A stretch of 64,000 bases of DNA from Minisyncoccota bacterium (GTDB lineage: Bacteria; Patescibacteriota; Minisyncoccia; Phycocordibacterales; JAQTLZ01): positions 32,354-96,353 of the forward strand of contig JAQTLZ010000004.1 in the NCBI GenBank assembly GCA_028714635.1. The letters are read 5' to 3'. Within the stretch, counting starts at the first letter, position 1, and each line of letters opens with the position of its first letter. The notes under the pieces were generated by a model. That model made no database searches and was not told the DNA's origin. It was given only the letters and a program-made list of their open reading frames with translations. Position numbers and translations under genes: made by a program. Of this stretch, positions 14,719-50,038 are shown piece after piece.

Positions 14719-15450
14719 ATGGCCACAAGTCGTCGACAAGGAATTCTGGTGCCGGATTTTACGGCGCGCCCGGATCGCCCAAGCGGGACAATTCCAGCGA
14801 TTGTCCAACTTGAAGGAAATGGGGTCGTCATTGATCTCATTTACCTGAACCGAAGCAAGTTTTTTGAAATGCTTTGGACTGGAACGGTAAGCGCCTGCAG
14901 AAAGGAACTTCAGGTTGTCGGTGTGCGCATAAACTGCGAGGTGAACTCCCTTTTGGTATCGGTTTCAAGAAAATCGGCCAATGATCGTTCGGTGCTTTGT
15001 ACGGTAGAGCGCGACGAGCTTTTTCCCCACAAAAACGAGCCGAAGTTCAAGGATGGAGATGAGATCAGGCCCGTGATTGTCATGCAGACCTTTCCGGAAG
15101 GAATGGTCTCGATGCTTGGCTCAACGAATAGTCTGGCATTCGAAACAATGCGCGACCTAGGCCAGCTTGTACTTTGGTCGGTCTCGAGGAAAAAACTTTG
15201 GCACAAAGGCGCCGAAGAAAGTGGAAATTATGTTCCCGTGGAGCATGTCTACACACACCCAAGCGGCATGCTTCTCACTTATGTGACGAATTCGGCGGTG
15301 CCAGTCTGTCACACAAATTCCTTGGGATGCTACTCTCGCAGTGTTCTTGTCAGTACGCCTCTCCTTATGGATGTCCCGGAAGATAGGATTCCGAGGCTGA
15401 AAGTTCTTGATAGGAGAATGGCGGCGGTGTCCGAGCTGATCAAATCCTGA
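14719..15450 (+). CDS. Hypothetical protein. It is GC-rich and has a strong AAGGAG Shine-Dalgarno site.
   Basis: ORF trimmed to MATSRRQG..., which is preceded by aaggagtcagacaATG. I recognise no domain. Confidence 0.45.
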   Translation: MATSRRQGILVPDFTARPDRPSGTIPAIVQLEGNGVVIDLIYLNRSKFFEMLWTGTVSACRKELQVVGVRINCEVNSLLVSVSRKSANDRSVLCTVERDELFPHKNEPKFKDGDEIRPVIVMQTFPEGMVSMLGSTNSLAFETMRDLGQLVLWSVSRKKLWHKGAEESGNYVPVEHVYTHPSGMLLTYVTNSAVPVCHTNSLGCYSRSVLVSTPLLMDVPEDRIPRLKVLDRRMAAVSELIKS

Positions 15451-15503
15451 TCTTCTCGATGTTCATTTCACACGAAGACGGTTTTCCGAAAGGAGCCGTT
15501 TTT

Positions 15504-16463
15504 TTAATCCAAATATTTTTTCTTGTTTGCTAAATGTTCCGCATAAGTCGCTGCGTAATGCATCACCCCATCTCTTCCTGAAAGGTAAAAAAGATATTTC
15601 GAAGTTGTCGGATGGATGGCTGCGTCTATTGCATCCAAGCCGGGATTTGAAATTGGCCCCGGTGGAAGACCCGTGTGCAAATAGGTGTTGTAAGGAGAAT
15701 CAAATTTCAGATCTTTGAGCGTTAGTTCAAAGGTGGTTTTGTCTGTCACGTAGGAAAGAGGCGCGTCTACTTGAAGGCGCATTCCGAGTTTCAATCGTTT
15801 CCAAAGAACTCCAGCGACCATTTTTCTGTCTTCGCTTGTGAGCGCTTCTTCCTCAAGAATGGACGCCATTGTTATCGCATCTTTAAATGTTCTGCCTGAA
15901 ATAAGAACATCCGCTTTCAAAACCCCCGTCTTTTTTTCGAAATTTTCAGAAAGCGTTTTTATAATATTTTCCGTGGTGATATTTATCGGGAAAAAATAGG
16001 TGTCGGGGAAAAGGTACCCTTCATCTTTTGTAGTAAGCTTCAAAAATTCATTTTTACTGAAATGAAAGTACTCTGCGGGCATTAAATTCGCAATTTGGAG
16101 GGTGTTGAGCCCTTCAGGGATGGTAACGCGTTTCAAAGGAAACCCAAAATCTCCGGCACTCACTCTTTTTGCTATTGAGAAAACAGAGAGTGGTTTCGTG
16201 AAGACGTATTCTCCGGAGATAACTGCTTTTTCATGATTGAGAAGGATGACGAAGTTATCAAAGAGGAATGATGAGCGGATAATCCCCTTCTCTTTCAAAA
16301 ATGAACCGACTTCCTTTAAGGAACTGCCGGATTCGATCATCACTATTTTGTTGGAAGGAAAGCCCGAAGGAGGCAAGGAGAGAAAATAAAAAGCGACTAA
16401 CAAGACGCACCCTGCGATGATGAGGAGAGCTTTTCTTTTCAAAAGGTATTTGGGAAAGCGCAT
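15504..16463 (-). CDS. mltG: Endolytic murein transglycosylase (YceG family).
   Basis: N-terminal TM helix and the conserved YceG C-terminus (...LQVDAPLSYV...YNTYLHTGLPPGPISNPG...). Confidence 0.85.
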   Translation of the reverse strand: MRFPKYLLKRKALLIIAGCVLLVAFYFLSLPPSGFPSNKIVMIESGSSLKEVGSFLKEKGIIRSSFLFDNFVILLNHEKAVISGEYVFTKPLSVFSIAKRVSAGDFGFPLKRVTIPEGLNTLQIANLMPAEYFHFSKNEFLKLTTKDEGYLFPDTYFFPINITTENIIKTLSENFEKKTGVLKADVLISGRTFKDAITMASILEEEALTSEDRKMVAGVLWKRLKLGMRLQVDAPLSYVTDKTTFELTLKDLKFDSPYNTYLHTGLPPGPISNPGLDAIDAAIHPTTSKYLFYLSGRDGVMHYAATYAEHLANKKKYLD

Positions 16464-16470
16464 AGAAGAA

Positions 16471-16569
16471 GGGTAAAGGGTTTAGGGTACAGGGTACAGG
16501 GTAGAAAATACTGTGCTGAGAAAGTTTTGATTTTTATTCTCAACCCCATACCCTCCACCCTGTCCCCTA
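16471..16569. repeat. G-rich / C-rich GGGTNNN-heptad inverted repeat, copy 2 of 2. It sits about 7 nt 5' of the mltG start.
   Basis: gggtaaagggtttagggtacagggtacagggtag ... ccccataccctccaccctgtcccct. Confidence 0.6.
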
Positions 16570-22200: not shown

Positions 22201-22300
22201 GTTTTGGCTTTTTCGGATCTTCATGGGAGGTGTAGACTTTTTTCCGAGCCCATTCTTTTTGCCACTTCTTTTCGATCTTTAGATGATCGTATTTTTGCAT
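19235..22300 (-). CDS. leuS: Leucine--tRNA ligase carrying a ~210-aa insertion between the catalytic core and the CP1 editing domain.
   Basis: HVGH and KMSK motifs, a CP1 editing domain and an anticodon-binding domain. I moved the start to MQKYD (22300) because the upstream terminator hairpin would otherwise lie inside the ORF. Confidence 0.9.
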   Translation of the reverse strand: MQKYDHLKIEKKWQKEWARKKVYTSHEDPKKPKHYVLDMFPYPSGDGLHVGHPKGYIATDIYSRFMQMKGYNILHPMGWDAFGLPAENYAIKNKIHPEIAVKKNIKRFKEQLSIMGFNYDWTREINTTDPKYYKWTQWIFLELFKKGLAYESYEPINWCPSCQTGLANEDLEDGKCERCGSVVEKRPMRQWILKITDYAERLLADLDAPVQKEPLKILIGTRNNAKVEMWRRCVPKESGITLLSLDDIAKIDDSDLVEGDDFEENARKKSEYYFKKTGIPTLSSDHIFWMEKWPENDGNVVHMRKHANPNSPRASDEEVVKYLKDFVKKNGESKSRFLYALSFTDASGTENLVAKGKEYILQDQQSKTFWDGYPVESLIKDPQTGEYKSEESDEIRYSHVIDAVQKKILPRIQKGQRTAGLNWPESIKESQRNWIGKSEGMLFTAPVKDTKLTIQTFSAHFEAFTADTFVVIAPDHPYLPKLLEGIPNKKEILDFAAGLIKKRAGQGFAEEKESEGIFTGRYIVDPVGNGDLPIWIASFALADYGTGIVKCSVHDERDFAFAKKYKIRLKPVLFPADKVLAEKVRNLEVCFSDMKNGVLNEPKAFEGKFSGKERQNIISYLEKNKLAVKKTTYRLRDWVFSRQRYWGEPIPIIHCEKCGTVPVPEKDLPVKLPKVKSYAPTGTGESPLAEISKWVNVKCPKCYGPAKRETNTMPQWAGSSWYYLRYMDPKNSKTFVDPKKEKYWAPVDVYVGGTEHATRHLIYARFWHKFLFDIGAVSTTEPFMRLKNQGLILAEDGKKMSKRFGNVINPDDIIKLYGADTLRIYEMFMGPFENAINWSTESMIGSRRFVERVWKLSQKVAQKPKTAPSQNLLNSLHKTIKKVGEDIVDFKFNTAISSMMMFLNEAEKETEIGAEIFSDFLKILSPFAPHVTQELWSLFGKGELKDAQWPVFDSALIGTSSFTIVVQVNGKVRGEFRVESEMGEEETKKRALSLPETLKWMEGKTAKKIIYVKNKLVSIVV

Positions 22301-22317
22301 GAACTTTAGAATACAAT

Positions 22318-23281: not shown

Positions 23282-23326
23282 GGATTTATAAGTGAGGATA
23301 ATACCGAATTATATCCCCTTTTTTGC

Positions 23327-23358
23327 TTTGACAAAAGGGCGAGCGGGTATAATCTGGA
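23327..23358 (+). promoter_or_regulatory. Near-consensus sigma-70 promoter, TTGACA-N15-TATAAT.
   Basis: ttgacaaaagggcgagcgggtataat lies about 55 nt upstream of the 23414 start codon. Confidence 0.4.
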
Positions 23359-23413
23359 TGGAGGTTGTTTGGCGCTGTTACACATTGGAATCGAGCCTGG
23401 GAGGGCCACGGTA

Positions 23414-23914
23414 ATGAGTGAATCACCCGCTGTAAGTGTCGATCAAGATGTCCGCACACAATTGGAGCGTCTCATTTCGCTCTTTGACACGTTCCATTGT
23501 GTTGGCGCTATCGTCGCCTGCGCCTCGATCTTTGTTTTCGGAATTTTCATCTGGGATGTCTCCTATCTAGTGGCGGGAATCGAATCGGCATTTTCAGCGC
23601 TGGTCTTCTTCGTCTACTTTCTCGTCGCCGACATCTTTGATGAACGGAGTGATGACGATGAGGAAGACGATCTCAGGGAAGCCGTTACCAGCTATCCCGA
23701 AGAGTTTTTGCGGATAAGGAGCAATTCCTTCCTGATTGGGTGGGCCCTTCTTTTCCTCATCGTGACCTGCACTCCTATAGTCCAGGAGGGAATCCTTGCT
23801 TCGCTGGTGGGGACTGTGGCTTGTTTTGCTTTAGGGATAGGTTTCCCGACCAGACTCTGCACTATTTTCTGGTATTGGGGAGATAAAAAATCACGCTGGC
23901 AAACGATTGTATGA
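23414..23914 (+). CDS. Hypothetical small membrane protein (four TM helices and an acidic loop); GC-rich.
   Basis: ORF trimmed to MSESPAV..., preceded by a GGAGGG Shine-Dalgarno site. Confidence 0.45.
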   Translation: MSESPAVSVDQDVRTQLERLISLFDTFHCVGAIVACASIFVFGIFIWDVSYLVAGIESAFSALVFFVYFLVADIFDERSDDDEEDDLREAVTSYPEEFLRIRSNSFLIGWALLFLIVTCTPIVQEGILASLVGTVACFALGIGFPTRLCTIFWYWGDKKSRWQTIV

Positions 23915-24032
23915 CAGTTTCGCAGTGACTCTTGGGGTCCGTTTGGGCTCCGAGAGTTTTTTTATGTTTAATCCCCAAACCACTGATTTTTAAAAAAAAA
24001 GGAGAAACGCGGTAGCGGATCTCCTTTCCATT

Positions 24033-24857
24033 TCAAAACTTTTTGATTTGCAGGCATCTTTCCATTTTCTCAAAAAGCCTGGGGTTTCTTCGCACATGCT
24101 TGAATGCCGAACCCCAGGGATCCAAATGGTGTCTGGCATATGAATACACCTCGACGAGCCGATCAATCCCGATCGTCTTTTCGTCCGCTTCCGGTGCATA
24201 GTTATTCAGCCGGCGAGCGAGTGCTTCGAGTGCTTCATCGCCAACAGCTAGGATTCGCATCGACCAGTCGTTTTTTCCTATCCAGTGTCTGCGCACATAA
24301 AGTCCGGCTGATATTCTTTGATAGCCGAACAATGTTGTTGCTGACAAAGTCGTGCGGTTGAGCTGGAGACTTAGCAGTGTTCGATAGGGGTTAAACATCA
24401 TTGTCCGCCGATCGTACGTCAGAATTCCCTGGCCGGACTGTATGAGTGTCACATCCAAATTTTCCGGGTCGAATTCAAAGCCCTGTTCTGGGACTTTTCC
24501 GAAAACACATATTCCTTTCGGCAAGTGTTTGTCTACGCGAAAACAGTACACTTCGAAATGTCCCACCAGCTGTCCTGGACATTCTCTTGCGTCCTGAAGA
24601 AGTAAGTGAAGCTTCCTACTTTCTCTTTCTATCGTCGCGCCATTCTTCGTCTTTTTTTCTTCACGGTCCAATTTTGCCAGCTGTGCGAACACCAATGCAG
24701 TTATCTCTTCTCTTGAAAGGAGTTGGTGTTTATTCTCGTAGCCACCCTTCTCAATTCGTTCGACGAAGTCTAAAAGTTTTCTCCGCAACGCACTTTCCTT
24801 CCTGGTTACTCTTCGGTATTCGGCGTACAAGCGCCGAAAATCGTTCTCGACGCTCAT
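24033..24857 (-). CDS. Hypothetical protein; GC-rich.
   Basis: 274-aa ORF with no recognisable motif. Confidence 0.5.
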   Translation of the reverse strand: MSVENDFRRLYAEYRRVTRKESALRRKLLDFVERIEKGGYENKHQLLSREEITALVFAQLAKLDREEKKTKNGATIERESRKLHLLLQDARECPGQLVGHFEVYCFRVDKHLPKGICVFGKVPEQGFEFDPENLDVTLIQSGQGILTYDRRTMMFNPYRTLLSLQLNRTTLSATTLFGYQRISAGLYVRRHWIGKNDWSMRILAVGDEALEALARRLNNYAPEADEKTIGIDRLVEVYSYARHHLDPWGSAFKHVRRNPRLFEKMERCLQIKKF

Positions 24858-25023
24858 GGTTTTGTCCCCCTGGGTTTTTGTTGAACAGCACTATCCCCCA
24901 AACTATCATAGTCGACACATTATGCAAAGTTCTCGAAAAGAATTAAAAACTAGATTTTGAATTCGATGACCCCGGTACCACAGCGAAGCTGGCTACGGGG
25001 CAAGCATCCCCATCAATTTAGTG

Positions 25024-26109: not shown

Positions 26110-26472
26110 TCATTCTGGGCAGAGATCTGTGAGGAGCTGAAGTCGGAAAGAAATCGGATCTTCCAGGCCTTTGGGAATGTCAGGCAAAACCTCCTCAAGA
26201 GTCATTCCGACAGTTGAAGAAATGTTGAGGATCTCATTCCAAGTCAGATCAGTCGCCGTGACCCGGCTTTTAAAATCAGGGTAAACAGCATCGATTGACG
26301 ACAAGCTTTCCCTCGTGCCGTTTTGTGGACCCTTCCTGATTCTCGCAATGTATTGAGCAAGTCGTTTGTGAATTTTGACCCGCTCTTTTGCGAGAACTTG
26401 TCGGAACTCCCTCTCCTGTCTTCTTGTGAAAGTCACTTGCGTACCCTCCTCACAAAAGTCGAACGCCACCAC
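26110..26472 (-). CDS. Hypothetical protein.
   Basis: 120-aa ORF with no motif. Confidence 0.4.
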   Translation of the reverse strand: MVAFDFCEEGTQVTFTRRQEREFRQVLAKERVKIHKRLAQYIARIRKGPQNGTRESLSSIDAVYPDFKSRVTATDLTWNEILNISSTVGMTLEEVLPDIPKGLEDPISFRLQLLTDLCPE

Positions 26473-28089: not shown

Positions 28090-28171
28090 CCCGTTAGAAG
28101 CTAGCTTCGATTATTTTATAAACCTTCAAATTAAGCACGGTTTGCAGATGTTGGTTGCTTCTAACGGGATC
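28087..28171. repeat. 85-bp MITE-like element, copy A. It has 14-bp terminal inverted repeats ATCCCGTTAGAAGC and an internal GAAGCTAGCTTC palindrome.
   Basis: catcccgttagaagctagcttcgattat...gcttctaacgggat. The other copies are at 36101-36185 and 51704-51788 (inverted). Confidence 0.7.
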
Positions 28172-28182
28172 CATCCTCTTAG

Positions 28183-29672: not shown

Positions 29673-30032
29673 TTATGGAGGCAAAATTTCTGCCTTATCT
29701 GGTTCGAATGGGAGTTTGTCGCGGGTCAACAACCTTACTTCGATTCCGGTATCGATGTCGAGGACGTCCGCAATCTCTCGCGCGTTGCAGGTTGCCTCGA
29801 TGACGATCTTAAGTCTTCCCGGGTCTTTCATGAAACCATTGGTGTAAACGATAAATCTGCGTTCCACCAAAGTATTGATTTCATGTTCAGACCACCCACC
29901 CATTCGCGTAACCAATGAGTAAAGCTTGGGCTTCTCTTCAACCACAGTTGTGGTCTTCTGGCCACCTCTCCTGCCTTTCCCCAAATGCCTCCGGTGAGGA
30001 AAGTCTGCTGAGAGACGTATTTTTCTGTCCAC
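29673..30032 (-). CDS. Hypothetical small protein with an uncertain start. The alternative start MGGWSE at 29903 would give 76 aa.
   Basis: ORF-track ORF. The 5' third sits in a GC-rich stretch that may be noncoding. Confidence 0.3.
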   Translation of the reverse strand: MDRKIRLSADFPHRRHLGKGRRGGQKTTTVVEEKPKLYSLVTRMGGWSEHEINTLVERRFIVYTNGFMKDPGRLKIVIEATCNAREIADVLDIDTGIEVRLLTRDKLPFEPDKAEILPP

Positions 30033-30117
30033 TGCCTTTTCCTCCGTTTGGGGTTAACTTTGATGTTATGTTCACAGAGAGCCCGAGAACTGCTCTAATT
30101 CTTACTGTACAACTAGG

Positions 30118-36185: not shown

Positions 36186-36191
36186 CATAGG

Positions 36192-36707: not shown

Positions 36708-36728
36708 GGCAGTATCTAACCTCCTTTA

Positions 36729-39180: not shown

Positions 39181-39253
39181 GGGCCCATAGCTCAGCTGGT
39201 AGAGCAGTGCTTTTGCAAAGCAAAGGTCAGCGGTTCGAATCCGCTTGGGTCCA
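39181..39253 (+). tRNA. tRNA-Ala(UGC).
   Basis: Cloverleaf folded by hand. Anticodon TGC in the loop ctTTTGCAAag, the G3:U70 Ala identity pair, a TTCGAAT T-loop, discriminator A, and CC encoded. Confidence 0.9.
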
Positions 39254-39261
39254 CCGAACAG

Positions 39262-40303: not shown

Positions 40304-41515
40304 TTAGAACAGTTTTCCCCTGACTCTTTTATGATACGAAATTGCGAATCGGTGCGCTTCGCTGTTTGCTAAGAGAATTTCTTTCTTATATTTTCGAGCA
40401 AGTAATTCGTCTCCCAGGAAATGATCGGGCTTGTGGCGGTCGTCTTTTACTACGTTTATGATTGGAGTTTTCAGTCCAAAATTTTCTAGCACTTTTTCTG
40501 CCAAATTTCTTTGTGCAATTCCCCCGTCTATTACTATCAAATTTGCAGTTGGCCATTCAGAGTGTTTCAGTCTGCGTTCAAGTACTTCTCGAAGCGCTCC
40601 CGTGTCGCTTCCCGCTTTGGCAGTGCGGATTTTAAACATCCGATAATCGGCCTTTTTTACTTCCCCATCTTCCACAACAGTCATTACGCCAACGGTTGAA
40701 GTTCCGCTTATATGAGCAACGTCATAAGCTTCGATTCTCATGTATCCCTTATTCGCGCGAATTAGGGATATATCAGATTTGAGGAGAGCGACGTCTTGGA
40801 TATGGCCGAGCGCGAAAATTTGTTTTTTGATCTTGTCTGCTTTTTCAAATTCTCTATTCTTGGCGAGGGTTTTCATCTCTTTCTCAAGAGATCTTACAAG
40901 AGTAGATTTTTTCCCCTCAAAAAAGAGTTTCAAGTGTGTGATTTGCCGAGCATACTCAACTTTTCCCATTCGTCCATCGCATACGCCCGGGCAAAGGCCG
41001 ATTTGGGCGTTGAAACACAATTTTCCTTGAAGTGGAGTACAAGTGTCCCGATATGGGAAAATTTTCCGAATAATTTTGAGTGCAATTTTTAACTGTCCGC
41101 CATTTGGAAAGGGGCCGAAAATATCTTTCACTTTATAATCCAGAGAATCTAGATTTTTACCGCGAACCAAAAGAATACGAGGAAAATCTTCTTTTGTGAA
41201 AACGACATAGTTGTAGCTTTTATCATCTTTTTCATCCGTATTGTATTTTGGCTGATGCTTCTTTATAAGAGCAGCTTCAAGAATGAGGGCTTCAAGAACC
41301 GAATCAGTAATCTGAAAATCAATTGAATCGGCTTTTTCAACCATTTTGGTGATAAGCGGGCTCCGAGCTTCCCCAAGCCGTGCTGAAAAATAGCTCTTTA
41401 CTCGGTCGTGAAGAGATGTGGCTTTGCCGATATAAAGAATCTCTTTTTCATATCGAAAAAAGTATACTCCGGGCAAGTCTGGCAGATTTTTTAATGATTC
41501 TTGACTAATTGACAT
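40304..41515 (-). CDS. uvrC: Excinuclease ABC subunit C, a short form with the GIY-YIG and EndoV/RNaseH-like domains but no C-terminal HhH.
   Basis: GVYFFRYEKEILYIGKATSLHDRVKSYF is a GIY-YIG motif. The start is trimmed to MSISQESL. Confidence 0.8.
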   Translation of the reverse strand: MSISQESLKNLPDLPGVYFFRYEKEILYIGKATSLHDRVKSYFSARLGEARSPLITKMVEKADSIDFQITDSVLEALILEAALIKKHQPKYNTDEKDDKSYNYVVFTKEDFPRILLVRGKNLDSLDYKVKDIFGPFPNGGQLKIALKIIRKIFPYRDTCTPLQGKLCFNAQIGLCPGVCDGRMGKVEYARQITHLKLFFEGKKSTLVRSLEKEMKTLAKNREFEKADKIKKQIFALGHIQDVALLKSDISLIRANKGYMRIEAYDVAHISGTSTVGVMTVVEDGEVKKADYRMFKIRTAKAGSDTGALREVLERRLKHSEWPTANLIVIDGGIAQRNLAEKVLENFGLKTPIINVVKDDRHKPDHFLGDELLARKYKKEILLANSEAHRFAISYHKRVRGKLF

Positions 41516-41588
41516 AATAGTGTTTTGAATGATACAGTAAGGGCCGTTACTTTGGCAAGGAAACCGAAAAGAAAAGGAGAATTCAGAG

Positions 41589-42341
41589 ATGACAAAAAAA
41601 GTGCTGATCGTGGAGGACAGCGAAGGAATCCAGGATCTTTGCTGGCAAGCGTTGGTAAAGGGTGTGGGATTTCCCCAAGAAGACATCCTTCAGGCCTACA
41701 CCATCGGAGAGGCCAAGGGTTTGTTCAAGACAAACAGCGCCGATATCGCCATCATTTTCTTTGATGGAAAGCTTGGCGAGAAGACATCCATTAAGCTGGT
41801 GAAGGAGATTCGTCAGAAGTTCGACGGTGTGATGGTCGCAGCGTCGAGTGACATCAACGATGAACTCATCGCCGCTGGCTGTACCAAAACGTGGGCCAAG
41901 AATCCGATGGCAGACTTTGTCTCAATGGTCGTTGAGGCGACAGGGTGGGTCAAAAAGAAGAAGATTCTCGCCATAGAATCCTGCTCACCCGCAAGCAGGG
42001 AGGCAATGCTCCGAGCGTTTGAAGTCGAAGCAGAACGGATTGGCGTAGACCTCATCCTGCCCCAGAGACTGGGGAAGGAGTTTGACGCAGAGAATGTTGT
42101 TGCTGTAGTTCAAATGTCGCGGATCGACGGAGTCATTCTGAGCGGATTTACGATCATCGAGGACCAATGGCTCTTTGCTATCTTTACCCGGTTACAAGAG
42201 GAAAAGATTCCGGTGTTGGTTGTATCTGAAGACGGCCCGTGGATCAAGCGCATTGCGGAAGCTGGCTGTCCTGAAGATTTTCGCATGCACGACAAGAGCA
42301 AGGCTTTGGAAAGATTCAAGGCATTACTCACCACGCAATGA
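41589..42341 (+). CDS. Stand-alone protein with two tandem receiver (REC)-like domains and no output domain; GC-rich.
   Basis: KVLIVEDSEGI...DIAIIFFDGKL in the first half and KKILAIESCS...VDLILPQ in the second. Strong AAGGAGA Shine-Dalgarno site. Confidence 0.5.
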   Translation: MTKKVLIVEDSEGIQDLCWQALVKGVGFPQEDILQAYTIGEAKGLFKTNSADIAIIFFDGKLGEKTSIKLVKEIRQKFDGVMVAASSDINDELIAAGCTKTWAKNPMADFVSMVVEATGWVKKKKILAIESCSPASREAMLRAFEVEAERIGVDLILPQRLGKEFDAENVVAVVQMSRIDGVILSGFTIIEDQWLFAIFTRLQEEKIPVLVVSEDGPWIKRIAEAGCPEDFRMHDKSKALERFKALLTTQ

Positions 42342-42392
42342 GTTTCTGAAGTTTGTTAGACGATATTGGGGTAAGCGCAAGCTTGCTCCTTT

Positions 42393-44999: not shown

Positions 45000-45057
45000 A
45001 GACCTACGCGGTGACGCATAGGGTTATGTATGAATTGTTCTAGTCTACTATAATCTT

Positions 45058-45092
45058 AGAAAAAGAAAAAGCTCGAACCGAAGTCCGAGCTC
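45058..45092 (-). terminator. Minus-strand hairpin with a T run that ends the uvrB/kinase transcript.
   Basis: gagctcggacttcggttcgagc followed by tttttcttttt on the minus strand. Confidence 0.45.
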
Positions 45093-45405
45093 CGTGGAAA
45101 TCCTTTCGAACTTCTAAAAGAGTATGCTTCCAGGGCTCCAACTGAAGGAGCGATGATTTTTCTTGATCGTTTCCGGATGTGATCTCGGAGACGACTCGAA
45201 GTCTTGGGGTTGGGATGGTTCTACTTGGGGCATGATCTTTTCGCCCCTTCGTTCCATCTCTGCGAAAACCTCGACAATGTTACAGCGTTTTGAAAGGCCA
45301 CCGCGAGCCTCTTTTCCTTGTAGCATTTGCGCTAATCTCCTTTCCCGTGTTGTACTTCCCCGAACAGGTATAGCAAAAAGAAACCTTGAGGTCAAAGTGG
45401 AAAAG

Positions 45406-46122
45406 TTAGGAAACTGTCTTATTTGTTGGAATAGTGAAGAAAAATGTGGTTCCTTTTCCCTCTTCGCTTTCAAACCATATTTTTCCTCCCTGTCCTTCGA
45501 GCACATTTTTGATGATGTAAAGCCCAAGTCCGATTCCATCCCTTCTCTGCTTAATTGCGTTTTTCGCGCGGAAAAATTCGCTGAAAATCTTCGGCTGTTC
45601 TTCTTTCGAAATTCCAATTCCTTGGTCAGAAACTGATACTGTAAATTCATCTTTACCCGGAACTAATTTCACGCTTATTTTCGTACCTGGTTTTGAATAA
45701 GTTACGGCGTTTTCTATGAGGTTTTGAAGTATGGTATGAATTTTATTTGGATCTACAACCAAGGGAGGAAGTGAAAGTCCTTCTGTCTCAAAAACTAAAT
45801 CAATTCCATAGCGTTCTGCCAAAGGAAGGAAGCTTGTGACAATATTTGAGATGAGATCCACAACTTGGGTTTCCTCGTAGTTGTACTGAAATTTTCCAGA
45901 CTTCAATGTATCTAAACTTAAAATATCATTCACAATTGCAATGGTGTTGTCGTTGTCCTCATAACATTTTTCCAGAACTTTCATTTGCTCGTCATTCAAA
46001 GGCCCAAGATCGCCTTTGAGTACTCCGGATAATGTCCATTTAATTCCTGCGAGAGGTGTGCGCAACTGGTGTACGAGAATAGTAGCAAAATCACCTTTTG
46101 CATCTTTTTTTTCTTCAGACAT
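45406..46122 (-). CDS. Soluble sensor histidine kinase (HisKA + HATPase_c), with no TM segment or sensor domain.
   Basis: H-box HQLRTPL, the G-box GIGLGLYIIK, and the GKIWFESEEGKGTTF region. Confidence 0.85.
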   Translation of the reverse strand: MSEEKKDAKGDFATILVHQLRTPLAGIKWTLSGVLKGDLGPLNDEQMKVLEKCYEDNDNTIAIVNDILSLDTLKSGKFQYNYEETQVVDLISNIVTSFLPLAERYGIDLVFETEGLSLPPLVVDPNKIHTILQNLIENAVTYSKPGTKISVKLVPGKDEFTVSVSDQGIGISKEEQPKIFSEFFRAKNAIKQRRDGIGLGLYIIKNVLEGQGGKIWFESEEGKGTTFFFTIPTNKTVS

Positions 46123-46137
46123 GGGAATATTCTAACA

Positions 46138-48171
46138 CTAAGACTTTTTCTTAGCCATTGAGTTTTGCAACATCGCAATCTCGTCTCGAAGAAGTGCTGC
46201 GGTCTCAAAATCGAGTACTTTTACGGCAGCATTCATCTGTTTCTCTTTTTCTTTAATAAATTTTGCAGGATTCTTCTTAAAAAATTTATCATCAAGCTCG
46301 ATCAAATTTTTGAGCGTTTTCGAGTGCTTGTTTTCCATTGTCTCGGTAATGTCATGAATTTTCTTCAGAATCGTTTTGGGAGTGATGCTGTGTTTCGTAT
46401 TATAAGCGACTTGAAGAGCCCTGCGACGATTGGTCTCGCTTATCGCTCTTTCCATTGAACCGGTCATGTTGTCAGCATAAAGAATCACGTGGCCAAGCAC
46501 GTTTCGGGCGGCACGGCCGATAGTTTGAATGAGCGAGGTTTCAGAGCGGAGAAATCCCTCCTTGTCAGCATCCAAAATTCCGATGAGCTCAACTTCCGGC
46601 AGATCAAGCCCTTCTCGCAGTAAGTTTACCCCGACTATGCAGTCAAATTTCCCTTTTCGAAATTCAGTTAGAATTCTAATGCGATCAAGCGTTTCGATGT
46701 CGCTATGCAGATATTCCGCTTTTACGCCGCGCTCTTTGAGATATTCGCTCAAATCTTCTGCCATTTTTTTGGTGAGCGTTGTCGCGATAACACGATTCCC
46801 TCTTTTAATCACCGCTTCGGCTTCCATTATGAAGTCCTTGATTTGACCTTGAAATTTTCCTTTTGAAATGATTGGACGGATAATTATTTCAGGATCAATA
46901 AGACCTGTTGGGCGAATGACCTGCTCAACTATCTGTTGGCTTTCTTTTTTTTCATATTCTCCCGGAGTGGCGGACGTATAAATTACTTGTCCAACTCTTT
47001 CTCGAAATTCTTCGGCCTTGAGTGGGCGATTATCTTTCGCGGAAGGAAGTCGGAAGCCGTGTTCGATCAAAGTTTTCTTTCGAGAAGCATCCCCAGCGTA
47101 CATTCCTCCAATTTGGGGCACAGTTACGTGCGATTCATCTATAATAGTGAGAAAATCTGCTGAACCATCTGCTTTGTGCGGGAAATAGGAAAGCAAAGAG
47201 TCTGGCGGTTCACCTTCCATTTTCCCCGAGAAGTGTCGAGAATAGTTTTCAATTCCGTTGCAATAGCCAACTTCGCGGATGAGCGCCAGATCGTATCTTG
47301 TTCGTCGCTTGATTCTCTCTGCTTCCAAAAGCTTTCCTTCCTTATCGAATTTTTTGATTTGTTCTTTGAGCTCGGCTTCGATAGTTTGGAGGGCGCTTTT
47401 TACTCCTTCGGAAGTGCTGATGAAATGTTTTGCCGGAAAAAGGAAAAAATTGTCCACGTTTTCTAAAACTGAACGGCTGATTGCATCAATGACTTCAATC
47501 TCGTCGATGACACTTTCTTTGAAACTTAAACGGTAAATGAGTTTCTCATTGACCGGCATTATTTCAATCGCATTTCCAAGTGCCCTGAAAAGTCCGGGCT
47601 CAAGGTCAGCATTAGTGCGTTCAAAATGGAGATTTACCAGTTTTCGAATGAAATCTGCGCGTGAAATAACCTGATTCTTTTCAATTTTCAAATTCACCTT
47701 CTCATATTCAACCGGAGAACCCAAACCGTAAATACAAGAAACCGAAGCAACAATAATGACATCACTTCGCGTGAGAAGTGCCTGTGTCGATGCGTGGCGA
47801 AGTCGGTCAATTTCATCATTTATCATTGCCTCCTTTTCGATATATGTGTCGGTGGTTGGCAAATACGCTTCCGGCTGGTAGTAGTCGTAATACGAAACAA
47901 AATAATGCACAGCATTTTCTGGGAAAAATTCTTTGTATTCTTGAGCGAGCTGGGCAGCGAGCGTTTTGTTGTGAGCAATGACAAGCGTCGGTTTCTGAAC
48001 TTTTTCGATGATGTTTGCGACAGTAAAAGTTTTCCCAGAACCGGTAACCCCAAGAAGTGTTTGGTGATTCATTCCTTCTTTGAGCCCCTTTACGAGTGCA
48101 GAAATAGCGAGTGGCTGGTCACCCGCAGGTTTGAATTCCGATTTCAACTTGAATTTCTTTTCTAACTTCAT
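46138..48171 (-). CDS. uvrB: Excinuclease ABC subunit B.
   Basis: GVTGSGKTFT Walker A motif, helicase motifs, and a C-terminal UVR domain (...AALLRDEIAML). Confidence 0.95.
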   Translation of the reverse strand: MKLEKKFKLKSEFKPAGDQPLAISALVKGLKEGMNHQTLLGVTGSGKTFTVANIIEKVQKPTLVIAHNKTLAAQLAQEYKEFFPENAVHYFVSYYDYYQPEAYLPTTDTYIEKEAMINDEIDRLRHASTQALLTRSDVIIVASVSCIYGLGSPVEYEKVNLKIEKNQVISRADFIRKLVNLHFERTNADLEPGLFRALGNAIEIMPVNEKLIYRLSFKESVIDEIEVIDAISRSVLENVDNFFLFPAKHFISTSEGVKSALQTIEAELKEQIKKFDKEGKLLEAERIKRRTRYDLALIREVGYCNGIENYSRHFSGKMEGEPPDSLLSYFPHKADGSADFLTIIDESHVTVPQIGGMYAGDASRKKTLIEHGFRLPSAKDNRPLKAEEFRERVGQVIYTSATPGEYEKKESQQIVEQVIRPTGLIDPEIIIRPIISKGKFQGQIKDFIMEAEAVIKRGNRVIATTLTKKMAEDLSEYLKERGVKAEYLHSDIETLDRIRILTEFRKGKFDCIVGVNLLREGLDLPEVELIGILDADKEGFLRSETSLIQTIGRAARNVLGHVILYADNMTGSMERAISETNRRRALQVAYNTKHSITPKTILKKIHDITETMENKHSKTLKNLIELDDKFFKKNPAKFIKEKEKQMNAAVKVLDFETAALLRDEIAMLQNSMAKKKS

Positions 48172-48278
48172 ATCGAGAAACTATACTATTCTGATAGATA
48201 AAAACAAAGGGCATCTTGACGACGCCCTTGTAACACGAATATTGCTGCAAAGATATGAGTCGGTTCTGGCCCCGACAA

Positions 48279-48530
48279 TCAGCATCCGATGAGATGACAC
48301 AGGCGGGTCCACCAGCTCACTTTTTTCAGATGGCCGACATAGACATGCCTGACCTCGTTCGGGTGGCCATCGAACCGCACGTGGCAGTGACTGATATCGA
48401 ATTGCGAATGATTAGTGATCCTTCCGGAGGTGCCGGCATCAACGACGAGCTTATAATTGTCGCCGTAAATTGGCGCTCCCGTAATCACTGACGTCCCAAC
48501 TGGCAGATCTGCCACCGTAACTGTTCTCAT
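48279..48530 (-). CDS. Hypothetical small protein in a GC-rich island.
   Basis: ORF-track ORF only. Confidence 0.25.
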   Translation of the reverse strand: MRTVTVADLPVGTSVITGAPIYGDNYKLVVDAGTSGRITNHSQFDISHCHVRFDGHPNEVRHVYVGHLKKVSWWTRLCHLIGC

Positions 48531-48709
48531 GGCTTGTCCCTCTCCTAATCTGGTCTTCCCCCGTTTGTACTACGCCCAACGCCAAATTGCATCATACACA
48601 AATATCCAATTTTTCTCAATAATGAAAAGTAGCCACGGTCGTGAGACACGTGGCTACGGTTATTGTTTATCTGCTCGCCCAGTGCGAAGCAGATTTACTT
48701 CTGGTTTTG

Positions 48710-50038
48710 TTACGCGCCCGGCTTAAAGCTGAAGCTCTGCACTTGCACGGCTTTCTTCAAGTTGGCCTTCTTTTTGGGGTTGTGTACAAAGACGATCACC
48801 CCCGTGCTGCTGTCTATTGTACGGCCGGTAAATGTTGCTTCTAGGCCATACAATACAGGATCCTGCTCTGCAACGCCGGTGAGCGTTTTCTTCCCATTCA
48901 AACCGTCCACAACATAGTAGTGAACAATCAAATGGTCGGAGCTTGTAGTTGTCGGGTTCACTGTCGGCTTCACAACACCCTTACCGCCCGCGGAAATCGT
49001 AAACGGCGCCGAAAATGCTCGAAAGGTGCGGTCAGTCTTCTCAACGAAGATCTGATACACACCCGGCGGAACATCATACTCGATGTACCATTGCGTTTCC
49101 TCGGAGTCGGGGAAAAAGTTTTCGGCAATAGAGCCGACCCACTTCATCGAGGTGTCAATCCTTCGGACCATCACATTTGCCCTGACGAGTCCGTCAGAGC
49201 TATACCCAAACCTCAGGTAATCCCCCAAGGAGTACTCATACTGGAGCGGGTATACGCTGATTTGCGTATCAGTGATCGTGAAATAGCTTTCGCTTTGACC
49301 GCCGTAATACCCCTGCACGGTAACGCGATACACACCTGCATGTGTTCCGATTGGTATCGGCGCGTCTCCTTTTCCCGCGATAAACATTTCATCGGGGATA
49401 GTGATAAACAACCGGTGGCCGTAGCCGTATTCAGATTCCAGATACTCGAACCTGCGGAACGCTCCCGTGTCGATATTTTGAATCAACACGGAACTTCCAT
49501 ATTGCTGGAAATCACCGCCGTAGATGGTCAACTCCTCTCCCACAGCTATGATTTCCGGATCGAGAAATGAAATCGTCGGCGGCGAAATCAAATTGAAAAC
49601 GCTGCCACGAATGTTCCCGACGAACGTTCCGTTACCCTTCCCATCGCTGAAAAGGGAAATTTGGATGAAGTACAGGCCGTCCGGCAGCTGTGCGCCGGTA
49701 TCGGTTGTTCGTGGTTGGAAATCCACCCACGTGTACTCATCCTGTACTGGTGTCCCGAAACTAATCGTAGACACATACACATCCTGATAGCCCATCGGGC
49801 TCGGCATCAAGTACCAGAGGCTTGCCTGCAGGTTCGTGATGCCGAGATCCGGATTGATTCGCACAGTCACCGTGTAGTACTCACCGGTGACCAACGTCGA
49901 GCCGTTATCGGGCCATCTGACCTCAGCGTCAAGCCCAGCCGCGGGCATTGCTTGCGGTTCCTCCGCCACAGCGAATGTCATGGGCGCACAGCCCAGAAAC
50001 ATCGCGACCAAAAAACCAGAAAAGATTTTGAAGAACAT
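48710..50038 (-). CDS. Secreted protein with beta-sandwich (Ig/IPT-like) repeats; GC-rich.
   Basis: Signal peptide MFFKIFSGFLVAMFLGCAPMTFAVA. A GGAGG Shine-Dalgarno site lies 7 nt upstream of the ATG at 50038. Repeated ...ISPPTISFLDP.../...ITDTQISVYP... modules. Confidence 0.6.
   Translation of the reverse strand: MFFKIFSGFLVAMFLGCAPMTFAVAEEPQAMPAAGLDAEVRWPDNGSTLVTGEYYTVTVRINPDLGITNLQASLWYLMPSPMGYQDVYVSTISFGTPVQDEYTWVDFQPRTTDTGAQLPDGLYFIQISLFSDGKGNGTFVGNIRGSVFNLISPPTISFLDPEIIAVGEELTIYGGDFQQYGSSVLIQNIDTGAFRRFEYLESEYGYGHRLFITIPDEMFIAGKGDAPIPIGTHAGVYRVTVQGYYGGQSESYFTITDTQISVYPLQYEYSLGDYLRFGYSSDGLVRANVMVRRIDTSMKWVGSIAENFFPDSEETQWYIEYDVPPGVYQIFVEKTDRTFRAFSAPFTISAGGKGVVKPTVNPTTTSSDHLIVHYYVVDGLNGKKTLTGVAEQDPVLYGLEATFTGRTIDSSTGVIVFVHNPKKKANLKKAVQVQSFSFKPGA

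What the first reader, a model, noticed from the sequence alone, without database searches (positions are those of the whole stretch)
14719..50038. Small GC-rich islands whose genes have strong Shine-Dalgarno sites, while backbone genes mostly lack them
Seen in sequence, judged by eye without computed values:
- The backbone is AT-rich, roughly 40% GC.
- Clearly GC-richer patches: dapB (1117-1935), the gene at 14719-15450, the block 23300-24900 with two hypothetical genes, the double-REC gene (41589-42341), and the island 48230-50070 holding a secreted Ig-like protein and a small ORF.
- The island genes are preceded by canonical SDs: AAGGAG before 14719, GGAGGG before 23414, AAGGAGA before 41589, GGAGG before 50038. 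Most backbone genes inspected have no SD within 15 nt of the start: rpsM, rpoA, rpsD, zwf, atpB, gdhA, alaS, leuS, mltG, pgl.

Inference: the islands are recent horizontal acquisitions from SD-using donors into a genome that relies little on SD-led initiation. The gene at 23414 also has a near-consensus TTGACA-N15-TATAAT promoter.
Basis: partly seen in the sequence, partly recalled or inferred. Interest (0 to 1): 0.55.

Follow-up and report, generated by a model that had tools for sequence, protein, structure and literature searches.

The report
GC-rich, Shine-Dalgarno-led accessory genes in CPR genome
In this small uncultured (Paceibacteria/CPR) bacterium the core genes start translation without a ribosome-binding site, while a scattered set of fast-evolving, GC-richer accessory genes each carry a classical promoter, leader and Shine-Dalgarno site; only one of them (dapB) looks like a clear import from another phylum.

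Summary
Seven "island" genes have GC 0.48-0.56 and GC3 0.51-0.63, against 0.434±0.029 and 0.420±0.050 for 56 backbone genes. Six of the seven have a strong SD 7-11 nt before the start; chance is about 3% per site. The backbone sits at chance level for SD. Its upstream signal is instead a -10 box 6-8 nt before the ATG (leaderless type) and AT-rich, unstructured start regions.

The inference of recent HGT from SD-using donors is only partly supported.
- dapB fits it. Its best relatives are Planctomycetota (57-62% aa), a transposase lies next to it, and it is absent from a sister genome.
- g24857 is an ORFan absent from the sister genome.
- The other islands occupy the same slots in two or three related genomes, with conserved promoters, leaders and terminators. 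Their coding sequences are hyper-divergent (24-62% aa, against 87-100% for the flanks).
- These genes have no homologues outside this clade. They are GC-rich and SD-led in every genome, although synonymous sites are saturated. Their composition is therefore persistent, not a fading relic.

Best reading: these genes are the clade's flexible, hypervariable set, expressed as leadered, SD-dependent monocistronic units within an SD-independent core. I could not obtain the 16S anti-SD sequence.

The parts
1117..1935 (-). dapB (4-hydroxy-tetrahydrodipicolinate reductase). It is the strongest GC outlier. It has only a weak SD-like AAAGGAAA at 1936-1943. The annotated start is 1929.
   Evidence: Pfam DapB_N and DapB_C, E = 1e-28 and 6e-47. 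GC 0.562, GC3 0.630. Nearest relatives are Planctomycetota MAGs at 57-62% aa, with dapB GC 0.61-0.65. It lies in a variable slot between rpsI and grpE that holds other genes in the sister genome.
2070..2771 (-). IS200-like (Y1) transposase next to dapB. It is AT-rich (GC 0.363) and has no SD.
   Evidence: Pfam Y1_Tnp, E = 7e-7, 29.9 bits against a cut-off of 23. It is absent from the sister genome at this slot.
14636..15450 (+). g14719 unit. TTGACA (14636-41)-N14-TATACT (14656-61); SD AAGGAG 14706-14711; CDS 14719-15450. The protein is 243 aa with a divergent PRA-CH (HisI-like) domain and a novel N-terminal half.
   Evidence: Pfam PRA-CH, E = 6e-15. GC3 0.545, SD energy -8.7. The only close homologue is the positional orthologue in MAG3: 62% aa, GC3 0.64, same AAGGAG. 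Fourfold-site identity is 0.37, i.e. saturated, with GC4 0.59 / 0.63.
23328..23914 (+). g23414 unit. TTGACA-N14-TATAAT (23328-23353); conserved leader; SD GGGAGGG 23399-23405; CDS 23414-23914. The protein is a 166-aa small membrane protein.
   Evidence: The leader 23348-23413 differs from MAG3 at 2 of 66 nt. The CDS beyond the ATG is 54% aa identical. GC3 0.545, SD energy -10.7.
24033..24871 (-). g24857: a 274-aa ORFan with SD-like AGGGGGA at 24865-24871.
   Evidence: Only a self hit among 5.8 billion proteins. Absent between ychF and the g23414 homologue in MAG3. GC 0.475, GC3 0.505, SD energy -9.4.
26110..26451 (-). 108 aa, GTG start at 26436, SD GAGGAGGG 26444-26451.
   Evidence: SD energy -12.7, GC3 0.486. 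The positional homologue in MAG3 is 124 aa, 34% aa identical, GC3 0.54, with GGGGGGAGG.
29673..30045 (-). Additional small SD-led ORF. 119 aa, GTG start at 30032, SD GGAGGA 30040-30045. Whether it is a real gene is uncertain.
   Evidence: SD energy -9.5, GC3 0.542. Annotated as a gene in two MAGs with different starts.
41509..42389 (+). g41589 unit in the uvrA|uvrC slot. Promoter TTGACA-N18-TACAGT 41509-41538; SD AAGGAG 41574-41579; CDS 41589-42341; terminator-like hairpin 42368-42389. The protein is 250 aa, alpha/beta, with a weakly REC-like N-terminal half.
   Evidence: MAG3 (133 aa) and MAG5 (127 aa) hold opposite-strand, GC-rich, SD-led REC-like genes in this slot. They match each other at 30% aa identity (E = 7e-19), the window protein matches MAG5 at E = 3e-4, and window versus MAG3 is not significant (E = 0.16). 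Flanking UvrA is 95-98% identical.
48279..48619 (-). g48530 unit. Promoter TTGAGA-N17-TATGAT 48619-48591; SD AGGAGAGGG 48538-48546; CDS 48279-48530. The protein is 83 aa with an HCHV-F-G motif.
   Evidence: Homologue in MAG5: 29% aa, E = 2e-12. By my reading of the sequence, MAG3 has an unannotated ORF in the same place. GC3 0.607.
48710..50153 (-). g50038 unit in the tgt|uvrB slot. Promoter TTGACT-N17-TATACT 50153-50125; leader with mini-ORF GGGAG-ATG-AAT-TAA (50100-50113) and a conserved hairpin plus U-run (about 50072-50111); SD AGGAGG 50046-50051; CDS 48710-50038. The protein is 442 aa with a signal peptide and is all-beta.
   Evidence: Among 1.84 billion representatives the only hits at E <= 1e-10 are the query's own cluster (P0008) and MAG5's P0060; two weak hits (E = 1e-7 and 4e-4) were not examined. 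Homologues sit in the same slot in MAG5 (421 aa, 34-38% aa) and MAG3 (511 aa, about 24% aa), with GC3 0.62-0.64 and SD in all three. DNA homology to MAG3 stops at 50047 and resumes at 48711.
36720..36726 (-). AAGGAGG 12 nt before atpF. It is one of the few SD-like motifs in the backbone, and the spacing is long.
   Evidence: Energy -12.3. The motif is absent before atpF in MAG3, so it is probably not a conserved signal.

Best explanation
The window comes from a Candidatus Paceibacterota (CPR) genome that runs two gene-expression regimes.

(1) Core genes.
- They are about 43% GC, and almost all lie on one strand.
- They start either as leaderless mRNAs, with a -10 box ending 6-8 nt before the ATG, or from AT-rich, G-depleted, unstructured start regions inside operons.
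- They have no SD.

(2) Flexible accessory genes.
- They sit between core genes at fixed slots and are small and monocistronic.
- Each has its own -35/-10 promoter-like element, a leader (about 45-80 nt where a promoter was mapped), a canonical SD 7-11 nt before the start, usually its own terminator, GC3 of 0.5-0.63 and a shifted codon usage.
- They form the clade's flexible gene set: a secreted all-beta protein, a REC-like protein, small membrane proteins and odd enzyme homologues.
- Their coding sequences diverge or are exchanged far faster than the flanks, while their regulatory regions are conserved.
- Their start regions are twice as structured as core ones, so they probably need SD:anti-SD pairing to recruit the 30S subunit (inferred).
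- A few members are true recent gains. dapB came from a Planctomycetota-like source, and g24857 is of unknown source.
- Most are old residents of the clade whose atypical composition and SD are maintained, not decaying.

Shown: the composition, the motifs, synteny, divergence, lack of outside homologues and the structure energies.

Inferred: that the SDs are used, so the ribosome keeps an anti-SD; that core genes are leaderless; and why GC-richness persists.
For: Organism and sister genomes.
- The proteins are annotated Candidatus Paceibacterota.
- The window is 99.99% identical to GCA_028711105.1.

GC and SD statistics.

Leaderless signature in the core.
- 12 TAnnnT boxes lie 6-8 nt before the ATG, against about 0.5 expected. 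None precedes an island gene.
- In the positional profile T is 59% at -7, A is 63% at -6, and G is 6-11% from -13 to -4.

Start-region structure.
- Folding energy of the start region is -5.1 kcal/mol at 33% GC for the core. It is -10.4 at 47% GC for GC-rich SD genes (p = 8e-8).

Promoters.
- Three of the five best sigma-70-like matches (10 of 12) in 40-52 kb lie just upstream of g41589, g48530 and g50038; one lies before uvrC and one inside tgt.

Slots conserved across genomes.
- MAG3 and MAG5 keep GC-rich, SD-led homologues in the same slots.
- Slot proteins are 24-62% identical, against 87-100% for flanking core proteins.
- Flanking non-coding DNA is conserved up to the CDS borders.
- The g50038 leader hairpin shows 3 compensatory pairs.

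Persistence of composition.
- Synonymous sites between the window and MAG5 are saturated (pS 0.66-0.85).
- The g14719 pair is saturated too (fourfold identity 0.37), yet GC4 is 0.59 / 0.63.
- SD motifs are kept in all five orthologue pairs or trios.

No homologues outside the clade.

dapB as HGT.

Generality: the association also appears in 57 metagenomic relatives.
Against: - The 16S 3' end could not be obtained.
- Tsurumaki et al. 2022 (PMC9297842) detected the anti-SD motif in only 48% of Parcubacteria. The SDs could therefore be unusable here.
- Leaderless transcription is inferred from motif spacing only.
- Starts in the sister genomes are as annotated, and annotation pipelines favour SD-preceded starts.
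- Only three genomes of the clade were compared, and the orthologous genes are not independent data points.
- Why GC-richness persists is unexplained. Other fast-diverging backbone genes (leuS, the histidine kinase gene, ddl) are not GC-rich. This argues against a simple recombination or biased-gene-conversion cause and leaves selection or a local process untested.
- Two islands have promoter hexamers with a 14-nt spacer, which would be poor in E. coli.
Confidence: 0.6

Rival explanations
1. One reading: every island is a recent horizontal acquisition from SD-using, GC-richer donors. On this view the GC and the SD are un-ameliorated donor signatures.
For: - Composition and codon usage are atypical. 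A3 is 0.18 against 0.31, and G3 is 0.30 against 0.18.
- GC1/GC2/GC3 look like those of a roughly 50-55% GC genome (my estimate from general GC1/2/3-genome relationships, not computed here).
- dapB fits fully.
- g24857 and dapB are absent from MAG3.
- A 56-61% GC element with a serine recombinase is integrated in MAG5. GC-rich mobile DNA therefore does enter this clade.
Against: - Five or six island families sit in the same slot in genomes whose synonymous sites are saturated. They have conserved native promoters and leaders, and all remain GC-rich.
- No homologue exists outside the clade for g14719, g24857 or g50038 in searches of 1.8-5.8 billion proteins.
- There are no viral or defence-system matches.
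- There are no mobility genes or flanking repeats, except beside dapB.
Confidence: 0.15
2. Recurrent replacement. The slots are recombination targets into which homologous but divergent alleles are repeatedly imported from an unsampled GC-richer pool, either other Paceibacteria or their mobile elements. Composition is refreshed by each import.
For: - Allele similarity is incongruent with the backbone. The window's g50038 is closer to MAG5's gene (34-38% aa) than to that of the nearer relative MAG3 (about 24%).
- The backbone itself is a mosaic of shallow and deeply diverged segments. leuS is 58% aa identical, mltG has fourfold identity 0.34, and the neighbours are about 0.6.
- Identity breaks sharply at the CDS borders.
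Against: - No outside pool was found in very large protein collections, which include assemblies of the same samples.
- GC-richer relatives use SD only marginally more: 15% against 10% at -8 kcal/mol.
- The flanks show no GC-rich hitch-hiking DNA.
Confidence: 0.15
3. A locus-restricted process maintained in place. Either a GC-biased local mutation or diversification mechanism acts on these coding regions, or selection on their synonymous composition does. SD is then selected secondarily, because GC-rich start regions fold.
For: - GC-richness persists through synonymous saturation.
- Hyper-divergence is confined to the CDS, between conserved leaders and terminators.
- Start regions are more structured.
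Against: - No reverse transcriptase was seen among the proteins scanned with Pfam, and no template-repeat copy of any island exists in the window.
- Two near-identical assemblies show no sequence differences in these genes; only the start annotation differs.
- No known mechanism fits.
Confidence: 0.08
4. Artefact: chance G-rich motifs, biased start choice, or chimeric assembly.
For: - Starts were chosen partly by eye.
- GC-rich DNA gives long spurious ORFs.
- Two small ORFs (26110-26436 and 29673-30032) are of uncertain reality.
Against: - The chance rate of an SD-like match is 3% in both sequence classes.
- The same sequence occurs in independent assemblies: NCBI MAGs and two Logan runs.
- The pattern repeats in other genomes.
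- SD-supported starts are backed by a signal peptide (g50038) and by the identity break at the ATG (g23414).
Confidence: 0.02

Closest known systems
Atypical (horizontally acquired) genes and small genomic islets, in the sense of Lawrence-Ochman amelioration and the 'atypical gene' class of GeneMarkS-2 (PMC6028130)
   Same: - Composition and codon usage deviate from the genome.
- The genes are accessory in character.
- One member (dapB) has nearest relatives in another phylum and a transposase next to it.
   Different: - Most members are not recent. They are positionally conserved across genomes with saturated synonymous divergence, and their composition is not ameliorating.
- They are GC-richer than the host. 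GeneMarkS-2 reports that atypical genes are more often GC-poorer.
- No donors were found.
Replacement-type flexible genomic islands, i.e. hypervariable loci between conserved flanks. Examples are O-antigen or glycosylation islands and surface-protein loci in marine and pathogenic bacteria (from general knowledge).
   Same: - The slot is the same in every genome, and the flanks are conserved.
- The contents are highly divergent or non-alignable.
- The products are surface, secreted or signalling-type proteins.
- Composition is atypical.
   Different: - These are single-gene units of 0.4-1.5 kb, not multi-gene clusters.
- The regulatory leader is conserved while only the CDS varies.
- The distinguishing mark includes a different translation-initiation signal from the rest of the genome.
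Genomes with dual start signals: leaderless first genes plus SD-led other genes. This is GeneMarkS-2 group C, e.g. Mycobacterium and Deinococcus (PMC6028130, PMC4633059).
   Same: A -10 box lies at a fixed short distance from the ATG for many genes, and SD is present at other genes.
   Different: Here, genes internal to core operons also lack SD. SD is essentially confined to the compositionally atypical accessory genes, not to operon-internal genes.
SD-poor lineages: Bacteroidetes (PMC3155529), and Parcubacteria in which the anti-SD motif was detected in only 48% of genomes (PMC9297842)
   Same: - Core genes lack SD.
- Start regions are AT-rich and unstructured.
- The organism belongs to the Parcubacteria/Paceibacteria radiation.
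   Different: A minority class with strong, conserved, correctly spaced SDs coexists with the SD-less core. Whether this genome's 16S keeps the anti-SD is unknown.

Membership tests
Recently acquired horizontal-transfer island | Composition and codon usage deviate from the host genome | tested here: met
   GC3 z-scores are 1.7-4.2, with MWU p = 7e-9. Codon usage is shifted to G/C-ending codons.
Recently acquired horizontal-transfer island | Absent from close relatives at the same locus | tested here: not met
   Met only for dapB and g24857. g14719, g23414, g26436, g48530, g50038 and (weakly, through MAG5 only) the g41589 family have positional homologues in MAG3 and/or MAG5.
Recently acquired horizontal-transfer island | Nearest homologues lie in a distant lineage (the donor) | tested here: not met
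   Met for dapB: Planctomycetota at 57-62% aa. g14719, g24857 and g50038 have no significant homologues outside this clade, apart from remote HisI-domain matches. g41589 was tested only against viral contigs, with no hit.
Recently acquired horizontal-transfer island | Mobility signatures: integrase or transposase, a tRNA, or flanking repeats | tested here: not met
   A Y1 transposase lies next to dapB only. The Pfam scans hit no other mobility gene among the proteins tested, and no repeated copy of island DNA exists. tRNA-Ala at 39181-39255 is not adjacent to any island.
Recently acquired horizontal-transfer island | Composition decays towards the host with residence time (amelioration) | tested here: not met
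   Slot genes keep GC3 0.58-0.64 in three genomes whose synonymous sites are saturated.
Replacement-type flexible or hypervariable locus | Same position between conserved flanking genes in different genomes | tested here: met
   tgt|X|uvrB and uvrA|Y|uvrC are present in the window, MAG3 and MAG5. Similar small GC-richer SD-led genes occupy these slots in the metagenomic relatives L041 and L047.
Replacement-type flexible or hypervariable locus | Content is far more divergent than the flanks | tested here: met
   Slot proteins are 24-38% aa identical, against 87-98% for Tgt, UvrB and UvrA. DNA identity of 85-89% stops at the CDS borders.
Replacement-type flexible or hypervariable locus | Several alleles coexist in one population | not testable with these tools
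   This needs read-level, strain-resolved data from the source samples (SRR22315508 / SRR22315509).
SD-led translation initiation | A purine-rich GGAGG-type motif 5-10 nt upstream of the start | tested here: met
   Six of the seven reader islands, plus two extra ORFs, have one. Energies are -8.5 to -12.7 and spacing is 7-11 nt.
SD-led translation initiation | A complementary anti-SD (CCUCC) at the 16S rRNA 3' end of this organism | not testable with these tools
   No rRNA is present in the window or in any fetched locus. The literature reports loss of the motif in part of Parcubacteria.
SD-led translation initiation | The motif is conserved among orthologues while the surroundings diverge | tested here: met
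   SD is kept in the g14719, g23414, g26436, g50038-family and 157/158-aa pairs or trios, despite saturated divergence.
Leaderless-mRNA gene organisation (bacterial type) | A -10 box at a fixed distance of about 6-8 nt upstream of the ATG, and no SD | tested here: met
   12 boxes lie at 6-8 nt against 0.5 expected. The positional profile agrees.
Leaderless-mRNA gene organisation (bacterial type) | Transcription start mapped at the start codon | not testable with these tools
   This needs 5'-end RNA mapping.
   Pfam gives E = 0.003 at 18 bits, against a cut-off of 30, for residues 5-91 only. PDB response regulators match at E = 0.16-0.5. The AlphaFold model has pLDDT 51, with an alpha/beta pattern in both halves.
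Diversity-generating retroelement target | A reverse transcriptase and a template repeat near the variable gene | tested here: not met
   No repeat of any island sequence exists in the 64 kb. No RT domain was hit among the proteins scanned with Pfam or in the precomputed Pfam lists of the sister-genome neighbours; not every window ORF was scanned.

The most novel reading that the evidence does not exclude
The GC-rich, SD-led genes are a second expression regime that this CPR clade actively maintains. They are hypervariable coding sequences held between conserved leaders and terminators. Their GC-rich synonymous composition and SD dependence are kept in place by selection, or by a CDS-restricted GC-biased diversification process, for longer than it takes synonymous sites to saturate. 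All this occurs in a lineage whose core translation does not use SD, and which may belong to the Parcubacteria with altered anti-SD. That would imply a functional partition of the translation machinery or of regulation between core and flexible genes, not a footprint of transfer.
Probability: 0.2. Interest if true: 0.8.

Novelty: new variant of a known kind. Interest (0 to 1): 0.5.

Why it matters
- CPR/Patescibacteria make up a large share of bacterial diversity, and their gene expression is almost unstudied. Part of Parcubacteria is reported to lack the anti-SD.
- This locus shows that, within one such genome, SD use is confined to a compositionally distinct, hypervariable accessory class. 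Core genes are leaderless or SD-free.
- This bears on gene calling. Three island genes carry different annotated starts in near-identical MAGs, and a fourth (g23414) appears over-extended in MAG3.
- It bears on how HGT is inferred from composition. Here atypical GC persists beyond synonymous saturation, so it is not a clock for recency.
- It gives a concrete, testable case for asking whether SD dependence can be a property of a gene class and not of a genome.

Tried and rejected
1. A chimeric query joining three island proteins returned nothing. It wasted one homology search.
2. Phage or defence origin was not supported. A viral-contig scan for g41589 found no relative. PHROGs gave only weak matches to families of unknown function. 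PADLOC gave none.
3. A DGR or template repeat was not found. No second copy of any island DNA exists in the window, and no RT was hit among the proteins scanned.
4. Hypermutation between near-identical strains was ruled out. The 'different' PHS53 proteins (243, 365 and 76 aa) are the same sequences with other annotated starts.
5. GC-rich, SD-using Paceibacteria as donors: SD use rises only from about 10% to 15% across relatives of 36-65% GC.
6. Biased gene conversion at recombining loci does not fit. Other deeply diverged backbone genes (leuS, the histidine kinase gene, ddl, mltG) have normal GC3.
7. Structure prediction of g41589 and g50038 gave low confidence (pLDDT 51 and 46), so I ran no fold search. 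PDB sequence searches were uninformative.
8. A search for a 16S 3' end in the window and in all 118 fetched loci found none.
I reached it through cluster members instead.

Full report
**What the window is.** Exact-sequence look-ups place the window's proteins in MAGs annotated Candidatus Paceibacterota (CPR/Patescibacteria). An 11-kb contig of GCA_028711105.1 is 99.99% identical to window 43807-55071. The window is 43.7% GC. Almost all genes lie on the minus strand. The only RNA gene is tRNA-Ala at 39181-39255.

**Checking the observation.** I fixed a start for 63 genes and computed GC, GC3 and the best duplex energy between the 20 nt upstream and the anti-SD ACCUCCUUA.
- Backbone (56 genes): GC 0.434 ± 0.029, GC3 0.420 ± 0.050, median energy -0.2 kcal/mol.
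- Mann-Whitney p = 3e-8, 7e-9 and 9e-5.
- A random 20-nt window reaches -8.5 in 3% of cases, in island and in backbone sequence alike. Six of seven is therefore far beyond chance, and the backbone sits near chance. Five of the 56 backbone-class genes reach about -8.4; two of these are the extra island-like ORFs, leaving 3 of 54.

Small corrections:
- The backbone is about 43-44% GC, not 40%.
- The 23300-24900 block is only mildly elevated.
- The TTGACA/TATAAT pair before 23414 has a 14-nt spacer.
- 'Double REC' is unproven.
- Two more small SD-led, GC-elevated ORFs exist: 26110-26436 and 29673-30032.

**What the backbone uses instead of SD.**
- TAnnnT boxes pile up with 6-8 nt between the hexamer and the ATG: 12 cases against about 0.5 expected. 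None precedes an island gene.
- The aggregate profile shows T at -7 (59%), A at -6 (63%) and G at only 6-11% from -13 to -4. The enriched words are TATAA and GTATA, not an alternative ribosome-binding motif. This is the signature of leaderless transcripts.
- Operon-internal genes (ATP synthase, ribosomal proteins) simply lack any signal.
- Core start regions (-25 to +35) are 33% GC and fold at -5.1 kcal/mol. The GC-rich SD genes are 47% GC and fold at -10.4 (p = 8e-8).
- Three island genes in the scanned 40-52 kb region (g41589, g48530, g50038) lie just downstream of three of the five best sigma-70-like -35/-10 matches there, giving leaders of about 45-80 nt. g14719 and g23414 have conserved consensus-like hexamers with a 14-nt spacer.

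**Sister genomes.** Cluster look-ups and contig look-ups gave two syntenic relatives.
- MAG3 is GCA_028711065.1 (loci L004-L007). Backbone nucleotide identity is 80-90%.
- MAG5 is GCA_028710915.1 (L038). Backbone nucleotide identity is about 75-80%.

The pattern repeats in both.
- Between tgt and uvrB, every genome has a signal-peptide protein (442, 511 and 421 aa) with GC3 0.62-0.64 and an SD (AGGAGG, AAGGAG, AAGGGGAGG).
- Between uvrA and uvrC, every genome has an opposite-strand alpha/beta protein (250, 133 and 127 aa) with GC3 0.58-0.61 and an SD.
- g14719 has an orthologue: 242 aa, GC3 0.64, identical AAGGAG.
- g23414 and g26436 have orthologues in MAG3 and g48530 has one in MAG5; each is GC-elevated.
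- MAG3 carries further GC-rich genes that are absent from the window. Most have a strong SD: an OTCase-like protein (332 aa) and proteins of 105 and 158 aa. One of 245 aa has only a weak AAAGGGA (-5.0).
- The 10 kb to the left of the window in GCA_028711105.1 adds four more.
- Pooled over 168 genes, GC3 >= 0.52 against SD gives Fisher p = 2.6e-11.
- In 57 metagenomic loci of more distant relatives (UvrB 58-76% identical), crude ORF calls still show SD in 30% of genes that are 0.15 above the locus median GC3. The figure is 8-10% for typical genes.

**Are the islands recent imports?** For dapB, yes in kind.
- Its nearest relatives in one-genome-per-species contigs are four Planctomycetota MAGs, at 57-62% aa. 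Their loci are 55-63% GC and their dapB is 61-65% GC.
- It lies next to an IS200-like transposase.
- It sits in a slot between rpsI and grpE that holds entirely different genes in MAG3.

g24857 is present only in this strain, but it has no homologue at all.

For the rest, the evidence goes the other way.
- g14719's only close homologue among 5.8 billion proteins is the MAG3 orthologue.
- g50038's only hits at E <= 1e-10 among 1.84 billion representatives are its own cluster and MAG5's protein; two weak hits (E = 1e-7, 4e-4) were not examined.
- The slot proteins are homologous across genomes but only 24-38% identical. The flanking Tgt, UvrB and UvrA are 87-98% identical.
- DNA identity of 85-89% to MAG3 runs through the promoter and leader up to position 50047, and it resumes exactly after the stop codon at 48711.
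- The leader of g23414 differs from MAG3 at 2 of 66 nt, and then identity collapses at the ATG.
- These are therefore old residents with native, conserved regulatory regions and hyper-divergent coding sequences.

**Composition is persistent.**
- Between the window and MAG5, synonymous sites of core genes are saturated. pS is 0.66-0.85, and identity at fourfold sites of conserved residues is 0.26-0.46.
- The g14719 pair is saturated too (fourfold identity 0.37), yet both copies keep GC4 at 0.59 and 0.63. Core genes have about 0.38-0.49.
- A single old transfer would have ameliorated. The GC-richness is therefore either renewed, by repeated replacement from a pool, or maintained in place.

Evidence on the two options:
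- For replacement: allele similarity is incongruent with the backbone (the window's g50038 is nearer to MAG5's gene than to MAG3's), and the backbone itself is a mosaic.
- Against an outside pool: none was found, and GC-richer relatives use SD only slightly more.
- Against a general recombination effect: other deeply diverged backbone genes are not GC-rich.
- Against retroelement-type diversification: no template repeat exists and no RT was hit among the proteins scanned.
- Near-identical assemblies differ only in annotated starts.

I cannot decide between these options. I rank the 'flexible, hypervariable, SD-dependent gene class' description as best supported and leave the cause of the persistent GC open.

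**Do the SDs work?**
- Directly, this is untestable here. No 16S sequence was reachable.
- Tsurumaki et al. 2022 report the anti-SD motif in only 48% of Parcubacteria (PMC9297842).
- Indirectly, the motif is retained at 7-11 nt spacing in every orthologue pair or trio while the surrounding sequence has diverged to saturation. It also accompanies more structured start regions. Both points argue for purifying selection and hence a functional anti-SD. This step is an inference.

**Comparison with what is known.**
- The closest concepts are atypical (HGT) genes, replacement-type flexible islands, leaderless-plus-SD genomes (GeneMarkS-2 group C) and SD-poor lineages.
- The present case differs in three ways. 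SD is confined to the compositionally atypical accessory class. Only the CDS is hypervariable, between conserved leaders and terminators. The atypical composition does not decay.
- Full-text searches for SD or leaderless initiation in Patescibacteria, CPR or Parcubacteria found only the anti-SD observation cited above.
- I rate the finding a new variant of a known kind, of moderate interest. The finding as stated is confirmed. Its HGT explanation is right for dapB and too simple for the rest.

Noticed in passing
window 28090-28172 (-), 36104-36186 (-), 51703-51785 (+): An approximately 83-nt palindromic MITE-like element sits exactly at the start codons of pgl, atpH and rluA.
- It has perfect 14-bp terminal inverted repeats: ATCCCGTTAGAAGC...GCTTCTAACGGGAT.
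- It has a 2-bp target duplication (GA or GG) after 'AT', so its last AT plus the duplicated G regenerates the ATG.
- The original ATG now opens a conserved 26-codon uORF (MNPVRSNQYLQTM...IIEASF*). This uORF stops at TAA 4 nt before the regenerated ATG in all three copies, which suggests termination-reinitiation coupling without SD.
- MAG3 has empty sites at all three positions.
- The same repeat family with ATG flanks occurs in distant relatives (L097:3456, L107:7673, L111:11424) and inside the uvrB ORF of L041:10685.
- One four-term full-text search found nothing relevant.
   Followed up: partly
window 50072-50124 (-), leader of g50038: The leader carries a mini-ORF with its own SD (GGGAG-ATG-AAT-TAA; in MAG3 ATG-AAA-TAA; in MAG5 GTG-AAT-TAA). 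The mini-ORF is buried in a conserved 17-bp hairpin followed by a U-run. Three of the pairs show compensatory changes among only three genomes. It looks like a transcription attenuator or translation-sensing leader downstream of the TTGACT-N17-TATACT promoter.
   Followed up: partly
window-wide, e.g. starts at 9849, 29598, 30762, 40270, 46122, 55553 (all minus strand): Many core genes have a -10 box, often TGn-extended, ending 6-8 nt before the ATG, with no -35 element or SD. This indicates leaderless mRNAs in a CPR bacterium. A full-text search for 'leaderless' with 'Parcubacteria' returned no paper.
   Followed up: yes
window 23348-23413 and 14636-14661: The leader of g23414 is almost invariant between genomes (2 changes in 66 nt) although the CDS is 54% aa identical. 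Both g23414 and g14719 have consensus-like hexamers separated by an unusual 14-nt spacer (TTGACA-N14-TATAAT and TTGACA-N14-TATACT). The g23414 hexamers, and the TTGACA of g14719, are conserved in MAG3.
   Followed up: partly
window 45114-46122 (-): The histidine-kinase gene (HisKA and HATPase_c in the sister genomes' records, 238 aa) is followed by an overlapping out-of-frame ORF (45114-45650). Read by eye, that ORF continues an ATPase-like sequence, although Pfam gave no hit for it. This is a possible frameshift or pseudogene. The gene is also only 52% aa identical to MAG3's.
   Followed up: no
window 19235-22300 (leuS), 15504-16463 (mltG), 26749-27336, 39302-40270 (ddl): The backbone is a mosaic. 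These genes are saturated at synonymous sites against MAG3 (fourfold identity 0.32-0.40; leuS is only 58% aa identical), while their neighbours are at about 0.6 and 95-100% aa. This indicates segmental replacement by recombination within the clade.
   Followed up: partly
L038:19430-21266 (MAG5, GCA_028710915.1): A 56-61% GC segment encodes an MT-A70 methyltransferase, a small ORF and a large serine recombinase. It is integrated just after uvrC in a 44% GC genome. This is a GC-rich mobile element in the clade.
   Followed up: no
window 6642-6676 and 16464-16498 (upstream of rpsM and mltG, minus strand): Short repeated ACCCTAAACCCT-like motifs lie directly upstream of two start codons. Other intergenic spacers show short local repeats (upstream of 4019, 12685 and 34157).
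   Followed up: no
window 274-2893 and L034:1341-4864: The slot between rpsI and grpE is a composite variable region. It holds an AT-rich Y1 transposase, GC-rich dapB, a PsbP-like 250-aa protein, a glyoxalase and a methyltransferase. MAG3 has DUF2283, a GATase and a 189-aa gene there instead.
   Followed up: partly
window 41589, 50038, 30032, 14719: NCBI annotations of near-identical MAGs give different starts for the same island genes: 250 against 243 aa, 442 against 365 aa, 119 against 76 aa. A Logan gene call gives 265 against 243 aa. Start calling is unreliable for this gene class in an SD-poor genome.
   Followed up: yes
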